A stretch of 64,000 nucleotides of DNA from the human T2T-CHM13v2.0 reference genome, Homo sapiens. Below the pieces are notes generated by a model. That model had not been told where the DNA came from. It saw nothing but the letters and a program-made list of their open reading frames with translations, and did no database searches. Shown here piece by piece: positions 2,341 through 64,000 of this stretch; position 1 is the first letter of the stretch, and every line of letters begins with the position of its first letter. The position numbers and the translations under genes were made by a program. Location: the NCBI RefSeq assembly GCF_009914755.1, contig NC_060941.1; one strand, given 5' to 3'.

Positions 2341-3048
<708 letters not shown>

Positions 3049-3324
3049 TTACTCTTGATTCTCAGAAGTCTGCCATGAACAGAACAGTAGGCAGCCTTTT
3101 TGGATGGGTTTGGGCACAGAGCTGGGTCTCAAGCTGTCTAATTCCTTGATTAATTTCAGGGTCGGGTCTTTGGAGATTACTGTGGGGTAGGGGTAGAAGG
3201 ATGGTTGGAAAACTGGATTACCTTTGATCAACCATGTACTTTTTCTTTTATTTCTCCTTCAGAAAAAGATGCTAGTAAAACTCACCTGAATTTCCCTCTG
3301 TAAGAGCTGCAAGGGTTCTAGAGG

Positions 3325-3470
3325 TCATCTAGAGGTCATCTAGTCCTCATATAACAGATGAAGAAACTGAGGCCCAGAGAGGTTAAGTGACTTGACTGAG
3401 ATCGCTGAGCTAGCTGATTGCAGAGCCAGGAATAGAACCCATGGCTGACAGCACAGAGGCTTTGAAGGCA
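3325..3470. mobile_element. MIR
   Basis: acagatgaagaaactgaggcccagagaggttaagtgacttg core. Confidence 0.75.
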
Positions 3471-3821
3471 GTTCTTACCATGCAGAGGTGACGTCCTTTG
3501 CCTATTATCTGCCTGCGAAAACTTAGCCACCAAATATAACTTAAACGAAGCAAAAACAGGCTCCCCTTCGGTCATTTGCAATCTCTGGATATTTCCAGCA
3601 AGGCTGGAGAGTGGAGGTGGGGGTGGGGCTGAGGGTCTGGACAGAGCCCCGCCCAGCCACAGAGAAGCACTTTTGATTGTCTTGATGTCACTAAGATTCT
3701 TGAAAAATGCTGTCCCATTGTCCATACTGACTCCTGCTGGTTGTTCCCACTTCTCAGCCTGACAGTCGGTTTCCTCCCCTCTTTATCTTTGTGGTCATTG
3801 CTGGCTTCTTCCTGCCCTCAG

Positions 3822-4210
3822 AGACCAGCCTCAGAGACCGTTTTGAAAAGCTCTTGGAGGTTCCCTAGACCTTTTGCCCCTTGGAGATGTAATAAGGCTT
3901 TGTATATTGTTGTCGTCAAATGTAACACAAATGGCTGGATTTTCATGGATGATGTTTATCAATTGACATCTGCTGTCTGTATCCTATGCTGTTTCATATA
4001 GGAATGTATACCAGATGTAGCCGGCGCTACTGTGGCTGTTGTCTGTATTGTATGTGTATTTGTATGCTCTGTCAGTCTCTCTGTACTCCTTCTCTATGTA
4101 CAAGTGTGTTAATGTGTATGCTCTCTGCAGCCTTCTGCTGTCTGTCTCTGTGTGTAATTAACCTTGTACCAATGTTCACAATGTAATAAAAGCAGAACTA
4201 AAATAACACA
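3822..4210 (+). other. Candidate alternative terminal exon of SHISA6 (coding 3822-3868, then 3'UTR; AATAAA 4185-4190)
   Basis: 54-nt AG-free pyrimidine-rich stretch ending cttcttcctgccctcag. Phase-1 reading gives (E)TSLRDRFEKLLEVP*. 16 TGTA in ~300 nt, then AATAAA. Confidence 0.5.
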
Positions 4211-7035
4211 ATGCCTTCTGGCGATTTTTAAACCTAGGGGAGATGCTCACTTATCTGGGATGGATGCATGAGTTATTACCAAAAAGCAGTGGGTTGTATA
4301 TAAAATGACTTCTTGATGACCTTGGAAGGGTCCATGAGTCCTTTGGCCCTCTGCTGAGGGTAGGCAGGTAAGAAAGTGCTTGTATATGAGGAGGAAGAGG
4401 GAAGGCTGGCTTCATGGGCTTTGCAGGTGAATCACTGCAATCCAGAGTGTCCTGTGTGAAATCTCAAAGTGCAGAGCAGAAATCAAACAGCTCTTAGTGG
4501 ACTGTTTGTTAGTATCCGTGAAAGCTCCATGGCCCCAATCTTTGCTAAACTTTTAAAGCACTCTGCAAAATTTCACCTTGAGAAATGCTCTTTCATCATG
4601 AGGAGGAGGTGAAGCATCCCTCCCATGCTGCCCTCTCTGTCCTGATCGTAGGAGCCCAGGGAACTGAACTCATTTAGAAGAGACTTGTCTCAAGGTTTTG
4701 ACATGATCCTATTGTTAAGAAGTGAAACCAGCATTCCTAGCCTTGGCCAGAGAATAGAAGGCATAGAGTAGGAAAGTATCTATCAAATCACATGCATCAG
4801 CCCAGGCAGAAAAGAAGTGGGGGGTATTGCAAGAAAAAGGAATGGAAAGTTTATTTACAACTTAATCCAAGGACCTTGTAGCTTACAGTGAGCTGGAACA
4901 TCAGGGTCAACTCAGCAGGGATGCCACGAATAACACACTGATGGGAGAAGGGGAAGGACACACACTCCCTCAGATTCCTCATGGGAAGGGGACTTATTCT
5001 AAGGAGCTGGAGATGTTAGGACTGAAAAGGAGCTTCAGGTCTCAGGTATGTAATACCATTAGCCCTTACCATGGGCCAGAAAACCCTGATAAAAGAGGTA
5101 AGCACAGCACCTGTGTCCCAAGAGGCAACTGGGGTTTCATGAAGATGTTCAGTCACTATGTGTCTGACACTGCTGTGGAGCTGTTCTTGTCCTCACTGGC
5201 CAGTTCCCATCTGGAATTCCTGAGACTGAACTTCCACATCTCTTCTTTAACTGGGACTTGAATGTTTTAGCAAAGCCTCATTATTCAGAGGCTGGAACTA
5301 CCTGGCCAGGACCAGATATTGTCCAGATACTGTCTTTTTATTTTGTTGGGAGAAAAGTTCCAGTACTTTTAGAAAGTCCAGCGATCGCTGTCTCTCTCCT
5401 TTCTTTTCCAAAAAGGAGTTTATAATTATTACCTCTCCTCTAAGTAGGAGGTGGAAGTATGGCTTATCTCCCAGGATTCTGGGTTCACACACTATAGTCA
5501 TTTGGATAAGTTCTTCCCAGCAGCATCCTTCTTGGACTTTCTTGGGTTCATGGATGGGTTCCAGAAATGGGAATTTTCCTGTCTGTTAACCTTGTAGGGA
5601 TAGACATGGAGTGGGATGTAGCTGTGTGGACTGCAGAATCATGCTTTAGTGCAGGAAAATCCCACAGTGCCTCTCTGTTCTTTCTTAAGAGCCTACCTAC
5701 TCTTAAGTCTGGCTACTGTAAACATAGTCTAGAATACACTGAAAACACTGTTCTGGGAACCCGTCCTTTCCTTCATGAAGACCCTGATCAGTGACTTCCA
5801 GGCTCAAGGGGCTTCCCAGAGCTTTGGCATGGATTGCAGAGCAGTGGAATGAACAAAGACTGAACCAGGAGTCAGATAAGGTAACTGGGTTCATTCATGG
5901 CTATCTCACTTTTATAAAATTAAGTCCCAGATGCATCCTAAAAATATTTTCAACTAGAAACGGTTATTCATTTAAACAAAACTGAGTACCTTCTTTGTGA
6001 ACCTATGTGCTTTGTGCTATGGGAAGCCAGAGAATCAACAACAATAGGATAAAACCCTGCCATTCAAAGGTAATGCAAGAGGAAATGGAGAAGAAAGGCA
6101 TATACTGTATACCACAAGGCAGTCCACGATGCGTATTGGAATAGCAGTAGAATGAGGAAAGAAGAGGGTGGGGGAGTATTCATGGACCTTGAGGGATGAT
6201 GGAATTAGGAAGAGAGTTTGGTTCTTAATTTGTAGTTAAGATACAGCAACTGACCACTCCTAATGCAGATTTCCACTGAAATAGGAGATAGGGAACAATG
6301 CATATCCACGGGATTATGTTCTCAAGTGAAACGTTGATATTCATGAAGCTGATGAAAATTCATTCTCTGAGTGACAGACACTTGAGGAGATGGTCAGAGC
6401 ATTCTCTTCCCTCACCCCAACATATCTGCACCTTTCTTCCTTTTATTTTCTGGCCTCCCTGCATCTCTTCTTCTTTTGCCTCTTTCTGTCTCTCTTTACT
6501 TCCTCTTTTTCTCTCTCCCTTCCTCTTTCCTTAATTACTGTCTGCAATTACTTTGGGGAGATGACATAGAAGAGCAAAAGAGTTTTCAATCCAGGTTGAA
6601 TGACCCTGGGTATCACACACAAGTAATTTAACATCAGACAAATCCTTTGTCATGGTCTTTTTTCTCCACTGGAAAATAGAAATATTTTCCTTGTTTGCCC
6701 TAACCCCACAAAACCCATCAGTTATAATCAATCATATGAGAACTGACAGAGGATTGAGCTCCAGGAAGTTAAACTGTGTGTTGACCCACGCTATTATGAT
6801 GAGGTCTAGCAGTTGCACTCAACTAGTCCCCTGGGACCATTTTTAGCCCAGAGGAGTACAAAGTTGGGGTGGAACATTTATCTGGGAGCTTCTGGACTGG
6901 TTACTACCTGAAAAAGCAGTGATTCCATGCCACATAAAGCATGTAACTGCTGTGAGCTTTTTATAAATGAGCTTAAAACGTGACTCAGACCCTTCCTTTT
7001 ATGCCCACTCACACTTCAAGTTTTAGAAAACAAAG

Positions 7036-39485: not shown

Positions 39486-40304
39486 TGAATGATCATGAAG
39501 AATGGCAGACACCAAATCACCCTTCCTCTGTTTCACCTACTGCCCACTCCAAACACACACATAACCAAACACATGCAAACATCAATACATGCAAACACAT
39601 ACATATCCACACAGTGTATTTGTACCACAGAGTCAACTGCCCACCTCCCTTAGCAGATAAACCTGCTACCAAACGTGAGGAAACTCACTGTCAGCTTCTT
39701 CAGCCTTGGCTGCTGAGGCAAGGGTGCATGTGCTGCTTCTAGGAGACCTGCTAACTGCTGCTGGTGGTCCACATGCTCTCAGTGGGCAGAGGGGCCCCAG
39801 CTTGCTTCTCTGCTTCCTGCAAACAGCCTTGGAGCTCAAATGGAGATTGTTTTGTCACTTTGTGGTCTTGTCAGCATATCGATCAATGAGTCCTGAGCGC
39901 TAATTGTTGTTATCCAGCTCAATCCATCAGGAAGGCTGATATCCCTGACTGGGCACTGTGCCAAAGCCCAGGACTCATGAAGAGAGAAGGAGGAGGGACT
40001 GGTAATTGAGGGAGAGGAGATATGATCAGTTGATAAGTCCAGAGAAAGACAGGATGCCAAACTTAACAGACTGCATGCATATCCCCGCAGAGAAGAGCCC
40101 TCGACAAAATCAGAGAATTGTTAGCTTTGCTATTCGGTGTACGTCATGAATTCTGCTGGCCTCCCTTCCACATCAACACATATCTTCCCACACGTTCCAG
40201 ACCTCCACCCATTACATAGAAAACCATCTGCCCGAACCCCCACAGGACATCTTTGGAGTACACTAACGTAGCATTTGTCAAAGCTGGTTAATGAACCTAT
40301 GCTG

Positions 40305-52011: not shown

Positions 52012-52068
52012 GTGATCATCAATATAACCATCCGATTTTGAGCAGTGTTACCCAGATCCCGCCACATG
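52012..52068 (+). CDS. SHISA6: SHISA6 internal coding exon (57 nt, frame-preserving; (G)DHQYNHPILSSVTQIPPH)
   Basis: Acceptor tttcttttctatgattttcag and donor G|gtgaga. The phase-1 translation matches my recollection of the Shisa6 GDxQYNHPILSS segment and joins the next exon as H-E-K-P-R-M. Too short to appear in the ORF track. Confidence 0.9.
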
Positions 52069-55827: not shown

Positions 55828-56118
<291 letters not shown>

Positions 56119-58420: not shown

Positions 58421-61400
58421 CCGGCGGGGCAGGGCCGGGGCTGCTGGGCGTGGCAGAGCAGAGCGGGGGCCGGGAGGGGCCAGGAGCAGAGCTTCTAGCC
58501 TTGCCACTCTCCCTTCCCTTGTCCCCTCTGTAGGAAGTGGGGGTGGGCCACCTTTGCCCAAAAAGCCATACCCCCGGGGACACAGCCCCGATGGCCTGGT
58601 CCAATACACTTAGACCCAGGACCAAGAGCAATCGCTCTTGCTCCTCCAGAAGAATCAGTGGGGAGTGAGGAGGGGGCTAGGCCCCATTCTCACCCCCGAC
58701 CACCTTCACCAACTCCCTTTCCGTCCCGCGCCTCCTTCTCCCCATCCGGGGGACTCAGCTGCAGGTTCTGTCAGCAAAGAGACCCTTGCTTGACTGTGGT
58801 CTGAAGCTGCCTGGGTTTGAAGGGGCCAGCGGGTCCAATCAGTGGGCTGACCGGATAGGCTACTCGGTCTCATTCATTCATCTAGAACCGCATCACAGAA
58901 ATCTCCTAGTGCCTAAAAACTGCCTGCTCGCTCTCTCAGAGCCAGGGAGCTGCTGTGTCCATAAGCACAATAATGATTCTTTTCTTGCCTGCTGGAACTC
59001 TCTGGTCCCCACTGAGTGACCCTTCCTTTGCTGACCCCTGAGGGCCCAACCCTGGCCCTGTGCCCCTCCCCTCAACTCCAGGACCAGGAGGGGTTCCCTT
59101 CCTTCAGCTGCCTCCCCATTGGTGGGAACTCCACCCCCTTCCAGCTGACTGCCCGCCCATAAGGACCCTGGGCCTGTCCTTTCAGCGGGCTGTGCTCCTT
59201 CCCTGGCCCTGAGGATTTCACCCTTGAGTTTTCTGGGGTTTTGGCTGTAGCCTTCGCAGAGGGGAGTAGCAATGGGGTGCTGGCCCTCCCAGACACCCGA
59301 TCATCTCCGCACTCCCTCCAGGCCTCTAGACCTGACCATGACTGCCACTCAGGCTGCCTTCTCCACCCCTGCTCTGCTCCCAGGAGGCACCTGCGGTGGC
59401 CAGAGAGCCAGGGTGGGGAGGGCCACTGTGATGTGCGGGGTCTCGGGCTCAACATTCGCATCCTGCAGGGCTCCACCTGTTCCCACATGCACCTCCGGCA
59501 GGACCTAGACAGAAGTTTCTAGAGAGCAGCTTTTCAGCCCCCAGACAAGGAGGATGAGAGGTGGTTGTCCTGCATCCTCTCCGCTCATCCTTCCTTCCCC
59601 ATCTCTGTCTACCTGCTCAGTTCAGAGATCACTCCTACTGCCTGTGTCCCCTTCCCCCACATCCTCCCTGCAACTTTATTCCTCCTAGCTGATCCTTCAG
59701 ATCCGTGCCTCCTCTGGATCAAAGGGACAAAGACCTATTAGCAAAAGCAAACAAAGGTCCTCCAGGCGACTGGCCTAGGGGCTAACTGGGCAGGTCCCCA
59801 CAGCATCATCCCTTTGTGCAGGCACTGGGGTACCTGGTAGACCATGGTCCTCAGCTCTGTTGGGGGACCGCCACTGCCCGCCCACCTCAGCCTCTTCCCC
59901 GCCTCCAGCCTGGGGGTTGGCATGGTGTGACGGCCTCCTGGGGAGGTGACAGTGAATTCAGCAGCATCCGCTCCCCCAAGACCAGAGAGCCTGGTGGGGG
60001 AAAGAAGGGGTTCCCTCATTCTCAGGGCCAGGGCACCCGCTGGGTTGGGGCTGGGGGAATCAACTCCAGGCTATTGGGTGAAGGTGTGATCCTAAAAACA
60101 GTCAGATCCAACAGCAGTGCCCTTATAAATGGGGTTTTACCTGCCCTCAGTTCTGCACTCATGGCCCTTTAAAAAGGCGAGTGTAGAAGGAGAATTTATT
60201 GGTGTCAGCCCTGGAGATTTTTAATCTAACCAAGTCCACAAACCACAGAGAAAGCAATGGACTGTGTCCTTTCACTGATTTCAAGAGTTCCAAAGCTCTC
60301 ATCTCCTTCTCCCCTCTGCAGGGTGTGCCTCCCAACAGGAACAGGAAACCATCACCCTGGATCTTAGGGGGATGGAGGCTGGGGGTTGTGAAAGCCACTG
60401 TCAGACCCCACACTGGGGATGCATTCCTGGAGTCGTGCGGCTGGAAGGCCAGGGACTACCCTCTCTGCTTTCCTCCCAACAGACACATAAACCTTCTTAA
60501 GGGCTGGTCCCCAGGGGTTTATAAGAGTTTGTTCCAGAAGGTGAGGCTAAGAGGGTTGGAAAGGAAGAAGTGAGTCTGAATAGAGCAGGTGGCTCCCAGC
60601 TGGGCCCCTGAGCCCAGCACCTTTGAATCGTCTAATCTGTGGCCATCCCTTGGAAGGCAGGATGCTGGTGGTGAGGGGAAAGGACCTGAGTGGCTGAGAA
60701 TGCCCTTCCCAGGTGTCTACATGCAGGTATACACCAAACCAGAAAGCTGATCCCATCTCCAGTGTCAAAGCTTCTCAGCACCAAGTTCTCCAGCCCCCAG
60801 GGTGACACTTTTCCCCAGGGGTCCTCCCCAAGCCCTGTCTCTGACAGGGTTTCTGTCTCTCTCAGGGGTTGTTGATGAGTTGATTCCAAGACATTTCTCA
60901 TCCCAGCCTTACCACTGTCTGGCTGAAAGGCTCTGATGTCAGTTGGGTTGGAAAATTCTACTGCAATGCTTACTTCTTTTCAAGGATTTCTTCTGCTTCA
61001 CCTTTGGGTCTAGAAGCAAGGAATGAAGGGAGGGAGAGAGGGAGGGAGGGAGGGAAGGAGGGAAGAAAAAAGAAGTAGAGATAGGTCTACAGACTTGCTC
61101 CAATTCAGTCCCACATTTCAAAATCCAGAAAACTATGTCATAGCTGGGACAGAGAGGTATCCCATTTATTCAGCTGTCCCATCCATCTTCATGGAACAAG
61201 CAAAGCCACATCAATAGGCAAGTTCACGTAGCAGATAAAAGAGGCTTCTGGGGCTGGAACCTAGATGCCATGATTTCTAGCCCAACCAGGCTGGTGGCCT
61301 CTACCATACATAGAAGTACCATCCACCCTTACAGTAAAAGCCTCCCTCCTGCTCACAAAGGAAGCCTAAAGCCCAAGATTTCCCTCTCCTTGTTTTATTC

Positions 61401-62679
61401 ATTTTTGCACATCTCTGTTGCTCTAACAGAAATGAACTGGAATCTGCACAGGTTCTCTCCTGCCCTGAAAGTTCTGCCTGGTTTCCTTGGCCTCTGATGG
61501 CATTGAAGCTTTCACAATCCCTCCTGCATCTCCACCTTCCCTGTCTTGCTCCAGGCTCCTGGCTCCATGCCTTCCTGTGTCAAAAAGGCTTTGCCAAGAA
61601 TTACTTCACCTCCTAACCAGGCTTCTGCCCTCAGGGCTCCCCCAGTGTCTTGGGAGTGTCTTGGGCCACACGACTGCCTCTTAGAAAGTTCCAACCTTGC
61701 CCCCAATTCAAATTTCTCCTCCCCTCTTTCCACTCTCCCTCCCAGAAACTCCTGATTTCCAGAAAACCTCAGATTTCCAGGCCAGGTCACTCATTCCTTC
61801 CTCTCATCTCCCTCTTCCTCCATCTACCTTCCTCCATTCACCTTCCTCCATTCCTAATTTCTTTTCCCTGGTCTTGCTATAATCTCCAGCTCTAAAAATC
61901 AGAGCTCTCAATGAAAACAATGGAAGAATAAGACATTCTTTCGGTCTTCTGTTTGCCTCACTGGTGTATCCTTCATCTCCTGCCCCTGTGAGTTGATACC
62001 CCAGTGCACGGAGCCAAGGGCTTTTCCCCTCTGAGCTCTGGGAGGGAAGGGAATGGAGCTCTGGGTTTGAGATGTCATGGCCTGTGATAGTCAGTTTGGT
62101 TCCTGCCACTAGCAAGTCCCCTGAAGCTCCCAACCCAGCCTGATGTTAGCCCAGAAGCTCCTGCTCTGGCCAAAGACTCCTATCCTTGAGGGCTCTCAGC
62201 CACTGCTCCAACACACTTGCCCCCTTCCTGCTTGTGTATGTCACTTATCCTCCTTTGTCCACAAAGACTTGAGGGCCTCCTGAGTCTCCAAGCATGGAGG
62301 AATATCCATGCCAACATCCCTGCCATCAAACTCAATCCATTTTCTTCAGAGATACCTTGTCTGTCACCAGCCTCCAACTTCATATTCCTTCCACAGGCAA
62401 CTGTGCACTTGACCCAAGGTAAAATGAAAGGGCTGCCAATCACTCGGACTCCAGAAGGTGCCTGCCCTGAGAAGAGCTGGCATGTTACCTCCCACATACA
62501 TTTCCTGTCATCCTGTCCGAATCTGGGAAATTTTGCTCTGGAGTATTTTCAAGAAAGCGCATTGTGTTTTAATGAAGTATTTTTCAGGGTTCCAATGTTA
62601 TTTTTTATAAATGCAGCATTTTAATGGCAGATTCAATATGAAGGACATGTCTTCCTGGGCTCTATATTTGATTTTGGAA

Positions 62680-62850
62680 GGCAGCATACTCTAGGAGAAA
62701 AAAAGCATAGGGCTGAGGCTCTGAAGACACAGCTTCCAGCCCTGGCTTTGTCTCCGAGGGGGAGTCATGTTCCCCACTCAGTGCCTCAGTTTCCCCATCT
62801 GTAAAATGAGGGGCTTTGACTAGATGAGCTCTGAAGTTTCATCCAGCTCT
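62680..62850. mobile_element. MIR within the 3'UTR
   Basis: gtgcctcagtttccccatctgtaaaatgaggg...gactagatga. Confidence 0.8.
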
Positions 62851-63811
62851 TACACTGTAGGGCTTTCATTCCCTGCCAGCACCTGCTCTCCCCGTTCCTC
62901 CCCACCTCCACTGAGCTGCACACATCCCACAATGCCTGCCCCACAGCGATGTCCTCAGATGTCCTGGACAGCCACCGCACTCCTCACTAGAGCCTGGGGT
63001 GGGCCTGATGGGCTCGGCCACCCAGGGATGCCCTCGTACCTGAAGTTTAAGGGCCTAACCATTCAATAGGTCACCAACTGTGTGCCATGGAAGCCCTCTT
63101 GTAAAGACACACCTAAACCATCCTAAGTGACTGTGGAATTCTGGGGAATTCTGAGTTTGGAGTTTCCATTTGGATACGGTCCTTATAGCTGGAGGGAGGC
63201 GGTTCCAATTTCAGAGAGGGAGCTGGCTGGAGAGAAAGGTCTGGAGGTTGGCCCATAAGGGCATGAAGTTTGTACTTGAGGGCAGCTGGGAAATTCATTT
63301 CAAGCTGCAGAGGAACGTGTTCACAGGCTGTTGTGTGGCAATGAATGTCATGATAACCCACTCTGGAATATGTGTCCTGAAGACCAAGTCTGGACACTGA
63401 GGCTCCATTCCAACTGGAGGAGGAGGCATCTCCATCTGGGCTGCTAGGAAGGGGCACTCATCCCATCCTAGTACCTTTGTAGCCCTTCGTCATGACACTA
63501 CCGTCCTCCCGGTGAAGGCTTGTGAAGCAAGAATGGAGAGTCCAAGTTTGTGATATTCAAACCCATCTTGTAAATCAGCAAACACATTAACCTTCCATCA
63601 GTCAGAGAAATAATGTTGTGGCTGTGTGTTTCCTTAATGCTCTCCCTCCTGAGGGAGGAGAAGACCCTGCTCAACTTTGCTGCCCACCCTGCAGTGACCC
63701 CTGAATGCCACACCATGGGAGGACTCATTCATTGGCTTTGTAGTGGCAAATATTCCTCTAGTTCTATAACTCAACTAGACATTTTGTAGTAAAGAATTCT
63801 TGAAATTCTCT

Positions 63812-63817
63812 AATAAA
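63812..63817 (+). terminator. AATAAA candidate poly(A) signal in the distal 3'UTR
   Basis: Canonical hexamer in AU-rich context, with TGTA upstream and U-rich sequence downstream. Confidence 0.45.
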
Positions 63818-64000
63818 AAGCAATTCTTACTGTAATATTTTTAGTTTGGGGACACAATTTCCTAAGGGGGGATTAATGAACATTTTTATGCATTAGCCCA
63901 ATTTATGAATTCCATGTTTATTATATGGTAGTACTGATGAAAAGTACCTTTCTATCTGTATCTTTGCAGTTTCTTCGTTACTCATATGTAAGCCTCATGG

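What the first reader, a model, noticed from the sequence alone, without database searches (positions are those of the whole stretch)
3766..4230. Candidate alternative last exon giving a short SHISA6 without the PDZ ligand or PPxY motif
Seen: a repeat-free island that reads like an mRNA 3' end. A 54-nt AG-free pyrimidine-rich stretch (3766-3819) ends at cag|3822. In phase 1, the phase of every SHISA6 junction in this window, it reads (E)TSLRDRFEKLLEVP-TAG (3866-3868). Then come 16 TGTA tetramers between 3888 and 4185 (about 1-2 expected by chance), AATAAA at 4185-4190 and U-rich sequence beyond. Established: UGUA arrays are CFIm (NUDT21) sites upstream of functional poly(A) signals, and SHISA6 anchors AMPA receptors to PSD-95-family scaffolds through EVTV. 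Inference: splicing the upstream exon here would yield a membrane SHISA6 isoform that keeps the extracellular and TM parts but cannot bind PDZ or WW proteins. That would be an intronic-polyadenylation switch between trapped and mobile AMPARs, and would also skip ~60 kb of transcription. The first residue (E) assumes the upstream exon ends in G, which is from recall. I do not recall this exon being annotated but cannot check.
Basis: partly seen in the sequence, partly recalled or inferred. Interest (0 to 1): 0.8.

Follow-up and report, generated by a model that had tools for sequence, protein, structure and literature searches.

The report
Unproven poly(A)-like module in SHISA6 intron
A stretch deep inside a long SHISA6 intron carries all the sequence signals of an mRNA end, including an unusually dense run of UGUA motifs, but nothing available here shows that cells use it to make a shortened SHISA6 protein.

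Summary
- There is a 54-nt AG-free, 80% pyrimidine tract, then AG at 3820-3821.
- The phase-1 reading is (E)TSLRDRFEKLLEVP-TAG.
- There are 16 sense-strand TGTA between 3888 and 4185, one AATAAA at 4185, then CA and a U-rich stretch.
- I confirmed from the genome that upstream exons 2 and 3 both end in G in phase 1. PPSY lies in exon 5 and EVTV in exon 6.

Only the UGUA array is beyond chance. It has 16 copies against 6.2 +/- 2.0 in local dinucleotide shuffles. It is the densest 298-nt frame in 264 kb of the locus on both strands. It is not a microsatellite, and the segment is single-copy in the genome.

The acceptor is good but ordinary, about one equally good site per 1.5 kb on the non-genic strand. 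A 15-codon ORF carries no weight.

Use of the exon could not be tested, because no RNA-seq, poly(A)-site or cross-species data were available. The weak evidence is negative: none of 120 short Shisa6 protein models carries the tail, and the papers consulted describe only cassette-exon variants. A very strong donor at 4367/4368 offers rival readings.

Verdict: a real, odd, poly(A)-competent-looking module. The short isoform remains an untested hypothesis.

The parts
3461..3962 (.). RefSeq 'enhancer' functional element. It overlaps the acceptor, the short ORF and the start of the UGUA array.
   Evidence: Hub annotation given with the finding; not tested here. 3600-3699 is 57% GC with a GC-box-like CCCCGCCC. 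There is no CpG island: 0-3 CpG per 100 nt.
3766..3819 (+). AG-exclusion zone and polypyrimidine tract. Its only two A residues are 3785 (in TTTAT, 36 nt before the AG) and 3797, the possible branch points.
   Evidence: 54 nt, no AG, 79.6% C+T. Branch-point reading is direct against the yUnAy consensus, which is recalled.
3820..3821 (+). Candidate 3' splice site AG (ccctcAG|AGACC). A second AG at 3822-3823 makes a NAGNAG-like pair.
   Evidence: Crude PWM score 6.87, rank 45 of 4945 + strand AGs. True exons 4, 5 and 6 rank 25, 14 and 29. 40 antisense sites score as high. The 3824 alternative scores 2.25.
3822..3868 (+). Candidate coding tail: G|AG ACC ... CCC TAG = ETSLRDRFEKLLEVP*.
   Evidence: The stop-to-stop ORF in this frame is only 45 codons (3731-3865).
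3888..4185 (+). Array of 16 UGUA. 8 are UGUAU, 4 UGUAA, 3 UGUAC and 1 UGUAG. None is a Pumilio UGUANAUA.
   Evidence: After TGT the next base is A in 16 of 34 cases. TRF finds only TGTATG x4 at 4044-4066. Short CTGCTGTCTGTAT-like repeats occur 3 times.
4185..4190 (+). AAUAAA hexamer, overlapping the last UGUA (UGUAAUAAA).
   Evidence: 1 of 56 AATAAA (88 with ATTAAA) on the + strand. It has the most UGUA within -100 (5) and within -300 (16; the next best has 6).
4207..4229 (+). Likely cleavage zone (CA at 4207-4208 and 4209-4210, 17-20 nt after the hexamer) and a U/GU-rich downstream element (4213-4229).
   Evidence: Read. The best 10-nt frame downstream has 5 T and 8 G+T.
4365..4373 (+). Strong 5' splice site CAG|GTAAGA (exon end 4367), 178 nt after the hexamer.
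   Evidence: Crude PWM score 7.0, rank 4 of 3124 + strand GTs in the window. With acceptor 3822 it would bound a 546-nt exon carrying the TAG.

Best explanation
The segment is a sense-strand module able to direct cleavage and polyadenylation, of the CFIm-enhanced type. It has a UGUA array, AAUAAA, CA and a U-rich downstream element. A usable 3' splice site sits 364 nt ahead of the hexamer.

It lies in the 172-kb intron between cassette exon 3 and exon 4 of SHISA6, 124 kb after exon 3 and 48 kb before exon 4. That makes it a candidate 'skipped terminal exon' for intronic polyadenylation.

If exon 2 or exon 3 is spliced to 3822, the mRNA ends near 4207-4210. It would encode a 281- or 313-aa type I membrane protein. 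That protein keeps the signal peptide, cysteine-rich domain, transmembrane helix and the juxtamembrane AMPAR-binding stretch. It then ends in ETSLRDRFEKLLEVP, without PPSY or EVTV.

Shown: the motif anatomy, the phase, the junction base G, single-copy status, and the statistical oddity of the UGUA array.

Inferred: that CFIm binds, that the site is cleaved, that 3822 is spliced to SHISA6 exons, and that the protein is made and stable.

My odds:
- About 0.45 that the site is cleaved at a detectable level in some tissue.
- About 0.25 that such RNAs are joined to SHISA6 exons at 3822.
- About 0.1-0.15 that a functional short protein results.

The confidence given (0.35) is for the module being a real, used RNA 3'-end element of SHISA6 transcripts.
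For: - Motif set and coordinates are verified.
- The UGUA density is beyond local composition: 16 against 6.2 +/- 2.0, with 0 of 5000 shuffles reaching 16. It is the highest in 264 kb on both strands.
- A is specifically favoured after TGT, in 16 of 34 cases.
- Among 88 + strand hexamers, this one has by far the richest UGUA context.
- The acceptor scores in the range of the true SHISA6 acceptors and has an AG-exclusion zone of 54 nt, against 46, 56 and 30 for the true ones.
- Exons 2 and 3 end in G in phase 1.
- The segment matches only itself in the 3.1-Gb genome, so it is not a recent retrocopy or repeat. It is not a tandem repeat and has no Rfam match.
- CFIm favours sites with upstream UGUA, and intronic polyadenylation is prevalent (PMC7614891, passages). 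IPA is enriched in large introns of long genes (PMC6428223, abstract only).
- SHISA6 is named among the top genes with cell-type-specific use of two poly(A) sites in human brain nuclei (PMC7349645, passages). No coordinates were seen, so this is a lead only.
Against: - No transcript evidence of any kind was available.
- The hub's RefSeq table lists 3 transcripts and shows exons for one, with none here. From the protein lengths seen (500 and 554 aa) and recall, the three differ only by cassette exons 3 and 4.
- 0 of 120 listed short Shisa6-like proteins (of 155 hits, lengths 116-371 aa, including NCBI models and contig-derived ORFs) carry the tail. Clustering at 90% identity could hide one.
- 0 of 34 short models whose tails go beyond exon 2 map to 3700-4300. 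They map to exon 3 or to read-through of exon 2.
- Equally good acceptor-like sites occur about every 1.5 kb on the non-genic strand, so the acceptor may be a coincidence.
- The array sits in T/G-rich, (TN)n-like sequence with small internal repeats.
- A top-ranked donor 178 nt downstream could recruit U1 snRNP, which inhibits intronic sites (PMC7614891).
- The papers consulted report only cassette variants (PMC6470934, PMC4733035, PMC4778035; passages). Their start-to-stop or Ex1-Ex6 PCR designs could not have found an alternative 3' end.
Confidence: 0.35

Rival explanations
1. No RNA-processing role. The segment is a T/G-rich, low-complexity patch beside or inside an intronic enhancer. The acceptor-like site, the short ORF and the AATAAA are coincidences. 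The hexamer could also be a cryptic site kept silent by U1 telescripting.
For: - RefSeq marks 3461-3962 as an enhancer (hub).
- TGT makes up 34 trinucleotides of 298 nt. The sequence has a T-every-second-base look and small CTGCTGTCTGTAT repeats.
- The second-densest TGTA cluster in the locus is plain microsatellite, showing how such clusters usually arise.
- Acceptor-like sites of this quality are common: 45 sense and 40 antisense in 64 kb.
- There is a strong U1 site at 4367/4368.
- No annotated or modelled protein carries the tail.
Against: - TGTA is enriched 2.6-fold over what the local dinucleotides predict, while TGTG is depleted.
- TRF finds tandem structure in only 23 nt.
- The array is strictly on the sense strand and ends exactly on the hexamer, with a canonical CA and U-rich arrangement after it.
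Confidence: 0.35
2. It is the 3' end of an independent, unannotated non-coding transcript. This could be an enhancer RNA or short lncRNA that starts in the enhancer near 3600-3700 and runs unspliced to the poly(A) site, with no link to SHISA6 exons.
For: - The enhancer annotation covers 3461-3962 (hub).
- A GC-box-like element lies about 550 nt upstream of the hexamer.
- The poly(A) signals are complete.
Against: - There is no CpG island.
- No RefSeq gene other than SHISA6 is listed in the window (hub).
- There is no transcript evidence either way.
Confidence: 0.12
3. It is a poison cassette exon. Acceptor 3822 and donor 4367 define a 546-nt internal exon whose in-frame TAG (3866) sends the mRNA to nonsense-mediated decay. 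This lowers SHISA6 output and makes no short protein.
For: - The donor CAG|GTAAGA ranks 4 of 3124 and the acceptor ranks 45 of 4945.
- 546 is a multiple of 3, and the stop comes 15 codons in.
Against: - 546 nt is long for an internal exon (general knowledge).
- A complete poly(A) signal lies inside it.
- There is no transcript evidence.
Confidence: 0.06

Closest known systems
Intronic polyadenylation through a skipped terminal exon (alternative last exon), as catalogued for many long genes
   Same: A 3' splice site, a short in-frame tail with a stop, then a complete poly(A) signal inside a very large intron of a long, neuron-expressed gene. The product would lose C-terminal interaction motifs.
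   Different: Membership requires observed junction and 3'-end reads, and none could be checked. The UGUA load (16 in 298 nt) is far above the few copies usually discussed for CFIm sites (general knowledge, not measured here).
Known SHISA6/CKAMP52 splice variants (cassette exon 3, 32 aa; also the 19-aa exon 4)
   Same: Same gene and the same phase-1 junction system. Exons 3 and 4 are frame-preserving cassettes in the cytoplasmic tail.
   Different: All described variants keep EVTV (PMC6470934 passages). The candidate would replace the whole distal tail.
Experimental Shisa6 and CKAMP44 delta-EVTV mutants
   Same: Loss of the PDZ ligand. Per PMC6470934, the effect of CKAMP52 on AMPAR lateral mobility depends on EVTV. 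CKAMP44 without EVTV still promotes surface trafficking but not synaptic accumulation.
   Different: Those are engineered 4-residue deletions. The candidate would also remove about 235-285 residues, including PPSY, so its behaviour cannot be read off directly.
Read-through of the exon 3 donor (tail GTVETIF[Y/C]*), seen in several gene models
   Same: It would also give a PDZ-less SHISA6. It recurs in 5 of the listed models, from mammal, turtle and bird sources (P0122, P0134, P0139, P0143, P0150). One is a spliced exon 1-2-3 ORF from an unnamed 2.2-kb contig.
   Different: It is a composite-exon or intron-retention form 124 kb upstream, not this module. It may only reflect unspliced pre-mRNA or truncated gene models.

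Membership tests
Alternative last exon / intronic polyadenylation isoform | Competent 3' splice site (polypyrimidine tract, branch point, YAG) | tested here: met
   Score is within the range of the true SHISA6 acceptors, the AG-exclusion zone is 54 nt, and TTTAT lies at -36. This is sequence level only, with a PWM recalled from memory.
Alternative last exon / intronic polyadenylation isoform | Reading frame compatible with the upstream exons, with a stop inside the terminal exon | tested here: met
   Exons 2 and 3 end in G in phase 1. The tail is 15 residues, then TAG at 3866-3868.
Alternative last exon / intronic polyadenylation isoform | Poly(A) signal hexamer with a cleavage site and downstream U/GU-rich element | tested here: met
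   AATAAA at 4185, CA at 4207-4210, T-rich stretch at 4213-4229.
Alternative last exon / intronic polyadenylation isoform | Observed splice junction from an upstream exon and observed poly(A) 3' ends | not testable with these tools
   No RNA-seq, EST or poly(A)-site resource is held.
Alternative last exon / intronic polyadenylation isoform | Presence of the tail in annotated or modelled proteins of any vertebrate | tested here: not met
   0 of 120 listed short Shisa6-like proteins. 0 of 34 model tails map here. This is weak: cluster representatives only, and the direct ORF search was blind to a 16-aa match.
CFIm (NUDT21)-enhanced poly(A) site | UGUA motifs upstream of the hexamer | tested here: met
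   5 within 100 nt and 16 within 300 nt, the highest of 88 + strand hexamers.
CFIm (NUDT21)-enhanced poly(A) site | CFIm binding, and dependence of cleavage on CFIm | not testable with these tools
   Needs CLIP and knock-down 3'-seq.
Microsatellite / simple repeat | Head-to-tail copies of a short unit over most of the segment | tested here: not met
   TRF at minimum score 30 finds only TGTATG x4 (23 nt). TGTA spacings are irregular.
Retrocopied 3' UTR or dispersed repeat | A second copy elsewhere in the genome | tested here: not met
   A search of the genome with 3766-4230 returns only the segment itself. Very old repeats could be missed.
Pumilio-response-element cluster | UGUANAUA octamers | tested here: not met
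   0 of 16 UGUA contexts fit (contexts listed; the motif is recalled).
Known structured RNA (Rfam) | Match to a covariance model | tested here: not met
   0 matches at E <= 1 in 3000-5200.

The most novel reading that the evidence does not exclude
The 16-copy UGUA array is a CFIm 'super-enhancer' of cleavage. In a cell-type-dependent way (for instance excitatory versus inhibitory neurons), it ends SHISA6 transcription 60 kb early. The result is a natural PDZ-less, PPxY-less auxiliary subunit that binds AMPA receptors but cannot trap them at PSD-95 scaffolds. The strong donor at 4367 (U1) would act as the off-switch.
Probability: 0.1. Interest if true: 0.7.

Novelty: new member of a known kind. 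Interest (0 to 1): 0.35.

Why it matters
SHISA6 holds AMPA receptors at synapses through its EVTV tail. The engineered tail-less form no longer slows receptor diffusion (PMC6470934).

A natural isoform without the tail would give neurons a way to set the ratio of trapped to mobile receptors through 3'-end choice. All work so far would have missed it, because cloning used primers at the start and stop codons or in exons 1 and 6.

Independently of SHISA6, a 16-copy non-repetitive UGUA array ending on an AAUAAA is a useful test case for how CFIm dosage and U1 telescripting compete in very long introns.

If the site is unused, the finding is only a sequence curiosity next to an enhancer.

Tried and rejected
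- The direct protein search with the 45-aa stop-to-stop ORF (window 3731-3865) found 46 word-sharing candidates, none at E <= 10. My calibration shows that an exact 16-residue tail would score about E = 4e2 at that database size. This search therefore says nothing either way.
- One fish partial model (P0163) ends ...VTSLRD and shares 5 residues with the tail. I estimated, without a computed test, that about 0.2 such matches are expected by chance among the 241 proteins fetched. I rejected it as evidence.
- The alternative N-terminus of mouse 'variant b' (P0018) was tested as a possible explanation for the enhancer/promoter-like region. It maps to window 39759-39998, not here.
- Retrocopy, tandem repeat, Rfam RNA and Pumilio cluster were each tested and not met.
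The last 60 kb before the window and the region after it were not scanned.
- Cross-species conservation could not be tested, because no vertebrate genome collection is held.
- Literature searches found no natural PDZ-less SHISA6 form. The searches paired SHISA6 with isoform, splice variant, polyadenylation, last exon or APA, and SHISA9 with isoform, PDZ and lacking. Listings were read, and passages only for the papers cited.
- One look-up failed on a too-short term and was not repeated.
Full report
WHAT IS THERE

The window is T2T chr17:11408001-11472000 (hub; confirmed). The finding's sequence facts all hold.
- 3766-3819 is a 54-nt stretch without AG and is 79.6% pyrimidine.
- AG sits at 3820-3821, and the previous AG ends at 3765.
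- Read with one base carried over from an upstream exon, 3822 onward gives X-AG ACC AGC ... CCC TAG. That is (E/K/Q)TSLRDRFEKLLEVP, with the stop at 3866-3868.
- Sixteen TGTA lie on the + strand between 3888 and 4182, against one on the - strand.
- The only AATAAA or ATTAAA on the + strand between 3000 and 5500 is at 4185-4190, and it overlaps the last TGTA.
- CA dinucleotides follow at 4207-4210, and a T-rich stretch at 4213-4229.

WHERE IT SITS IN THE GENE

I used a 554-aa Shisa6 orthologue found with the last-exon translation to search the window's own genome. I then read the exon ends in the fetched loci. The map on chr17 is:
- Exon 1: coding sequence ends at 11150265, phase 2.
- Exon 2: 11171572-11171732.
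- Cassette exon 3: 96 nt, 11287638-11287733.
- Exon 4: 57 nt, window 52012-52068.
- Exon 5: 153 nt, window 55856-56008. It holds LPPSY.
- Exon 6: starts at window 57870 and ends in EVTV*.

Exon 2 ends ..CCA G|gtaagt and exon 3 ends ..AAG G|gtacag.

The candidate lies in the 172-kb intron, 124 kb after exon 3 and 48 kb before exon 4. The product would be 266 + 15 = 281 aa, or 313 aa with exon 3. It would keep everything through the juxtamembrane region and lose PPSY and EVTV.

IS IT MORE THAN CHANCE?

The UGUA array is.
- The window averages 1.32 TGTA per 298-nt frame, and the next best frame has 7.
- With the segment's own dinucleotide content kept, shuffles give 6.2 +/- 2.0 with a maximum of 14. 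0 of 5000 shuffles reach 16.
- After TGT, A follows in 16 of 34 cases. TGTG is under-represented, so the excess is specific to TGTA and is not just T/G richness.
- I added 200 kb of upstream gene sequence. On both strands, 16 stays the maximum. The runner-up (11) is an obvious (TA/TG)n microsatellite 150-440 nt upstream of cassette exon 3.
- The candidate array is not tandem. TRF finds only TGTATG x4 at 4044-4066, and a CTGCTGTCTGTAT-like 15-mer occurs three times.

Among the 88 + strand AATAAA/ATTAAA hexamers in the window, the one at 4185 has the most UGUA within 100 nt (5). It also has the most within 300 nt (16; the next best has 6).

The other features are not beyond chance.
- I scored acceptors with a crude position weight matrix whose numbers I recalled. 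Under it, the acceptor ranks 45 of 4945 + strand AGs. The true exon 4, 5 and 6 acceptors rank 25, 14 and 29.
- Forty sites on the antisense strand, where no gene is annotated, score as high. That is about one per 1.5 kb. The chance of such a site within about 370 nt upstream of any given hexamer is roughly one in four.
- A 15-codon open stretch before a stop is what random sequence gives. The stop-to-stop ORF is 45 codons.

WHAT IT IS NOT
- The 465-nt segment matches only itself in the 3.1-Gb genome.
- There is no Rfam match at E <= 1 in 3000-5200.
- None of the 16 UGUA contexts fits the Pumilio octamer (the motif is recalled).
- There is no CpG island.

IS THE EXON USED?

This could not be tested. 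No RNA-seq, EST, poly(A)-site or vertebrate genome resource is reachable. Three indirect looks were possible.

(a) The protein database holds vertebrate NCBI and UniRef models and ORFs from unnamed assembled contigs.
- I searched with the exon 1 translation for proteins of 116-371 aa. This gave 155 hits, of which the best 120 are listed.
- None of the 120 carries any 5-residue word of the tail, except one partial fish model ending ..VTSLRD. I treat that as chance, on my own rough estimate of about 0.2 such matches expected (not computed by a tool).
- Of the 34 models that run more than 12 residues past the exon 2 peptide NHYTPV, none maps to 3700-4300. They map to exon 3 or to read-through after exon 2.
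- Only cluster representatives at 90% identity are listed, so a rare isoform could be hidden.

(b) A direct search with the 45-aa ORF found nothing at E <= 10. My calibration shows that even an exact tail would score about E = 4e2. This search is uninformative.

(c) Literature.
- The CKAMP review (PMC6470934) and the two primary papers (PMC4733035, PMC4778035) describe only cassette variants, all with EVTV (passages read).
- They cloned full ORFs or used Ex1-Ex6 primers, which cannot detect an alternative 3' end.
- One snRNA-seq study names SHISA6 among the top genes with different use of its two main poly(A) sites in excitatory versus inhibitory neurons. It called sites gene-wide (PMC7349645, passages). 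The coordinates are in a supplement I could not open.
- The 5.6 kb of annotated 3' UTR inside the window holds only one canonical hexamer, at 63812. A second major site elsewhere in the gene is therefore not excluded. This is a lead, not evidence.

COMPLICATIONS
- A very strong donor, CAG|GTAAGA with exon end 4367, lies 178 nt after the hexamer. It ranks 4 of 3124 GTs under a recalled matrix.
- It allows a 546-nt poison exon (3822-4367) carrying the TAG.
- It could also recruit U1 snRNP, which is known to inhibit intronic cleavage sites (PMC7614891, passages).
- RefSeq marks 3461-3962 as an enhancer (hub). The poly(A) signal could therefore end an enhancer-derived RNA and have nothing to do with SHISA6 splicing.
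- The 2-kb neighbourhood holds several other acceptor- and donor-like sites on both strands. Splice-like motifs are cheap here.

VERDICT

The UGUA array ending on an AAUAAA is a real statistical oddity, single-copy and on the sense strand. The best reading is a CFIm-type module able to direct polyadenylation, with a plausible acceptor ahead of it: a candidate skipped terminal exon.

My odds are:
- About 0.45 that the site is cleaved detectably.
- About 0.25 that it is spliced to SHISA6 exons.
- About 0.1-0.15 that it yields a functional short protein.
- About 0.35 that it is a functionless or silenced coincidence in a T/G-rich patch by an enhancer.

If real, it would be a new member of a well-known kind (intronic polyadenylation isoforms), with a clear and testable consequence for AMPA-receptor anchoring. 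It is worth a five-minute look in junction and poly(A) databases.

Noticed in passing
L009:1601-1625 (G000 C17:11287734 onward) and L009:2533: Reading through the exon 3 donor gives GTVETIFY*. The same tail, GTVETIF[Y/C], ends 5 listed short Shisa6 models from mammal, turtle and bird sources (P0122, P0134, P0139, P0143, P0150). P0122 is a spliced exon 1-2-3 ORF, 100% identical to human exon 1, from an unnamed 2.2-kb contig. An AATAAA with 3 upstream UGUA lies 933 nt after exon 3. This is another possible PDZ-less form, or just unspliced pre-mRNA and truncated models.
   Followed up: partly
window 39759-39998 (+): The alternative N-terminus of the mouse protein named 'CKAMP52 transcript variant b' (P0018, 379 aa, no signal peptide or TM) has a human counterpart here. 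tblastn gives 48% identity over 83 aa, E 2e-17, with two in-frame stops. This suggests a conserved alternative first exon or internal promoter about 12 kb upstream of exon 4 whose ORF is not kept in human.
   Followed up: partly
window 4365-4373 (+): CAG|GTAAGA is one of the four best donor-like sites in the whole window, and it has no annotated exon.
   Followed up: partly
G000 C17:11287202-11287500 (L027): A (TA)n/(TG)n microsatellite sits 150-440 nt upstream of the alternatively spliced cassette exon 3. It is the second-densest sense-strand TGTA cluster in 264 kb.
   Followed up: no
window 58421-64000 (+): The 5.6 kb of annotated SHISA6 3' UTR inside the window holds only one AATAAA/ATTAAA hexamer (63812), about 350 nt before the annotated end at 64179.
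   Followed up: no
window 3263 (+): An acceptor-like site (ttttcttttatttctccttcag|AAAAAG) scores higher than every true SHISA6 acceptor in the window and has a 61-nt AG-free zone. It lies 560 nt upstream of the candidate, with no annotated exon.
   Followed up: no
P0163 (fish partial Shisa6-like model): The model diverges after the exon 2 equivalent and ends ...FMSSVTSLRD, sharing TSLRD with the candidate tail. By my rough estimate this is chance level for the number of words compared.
   Followed up: partly
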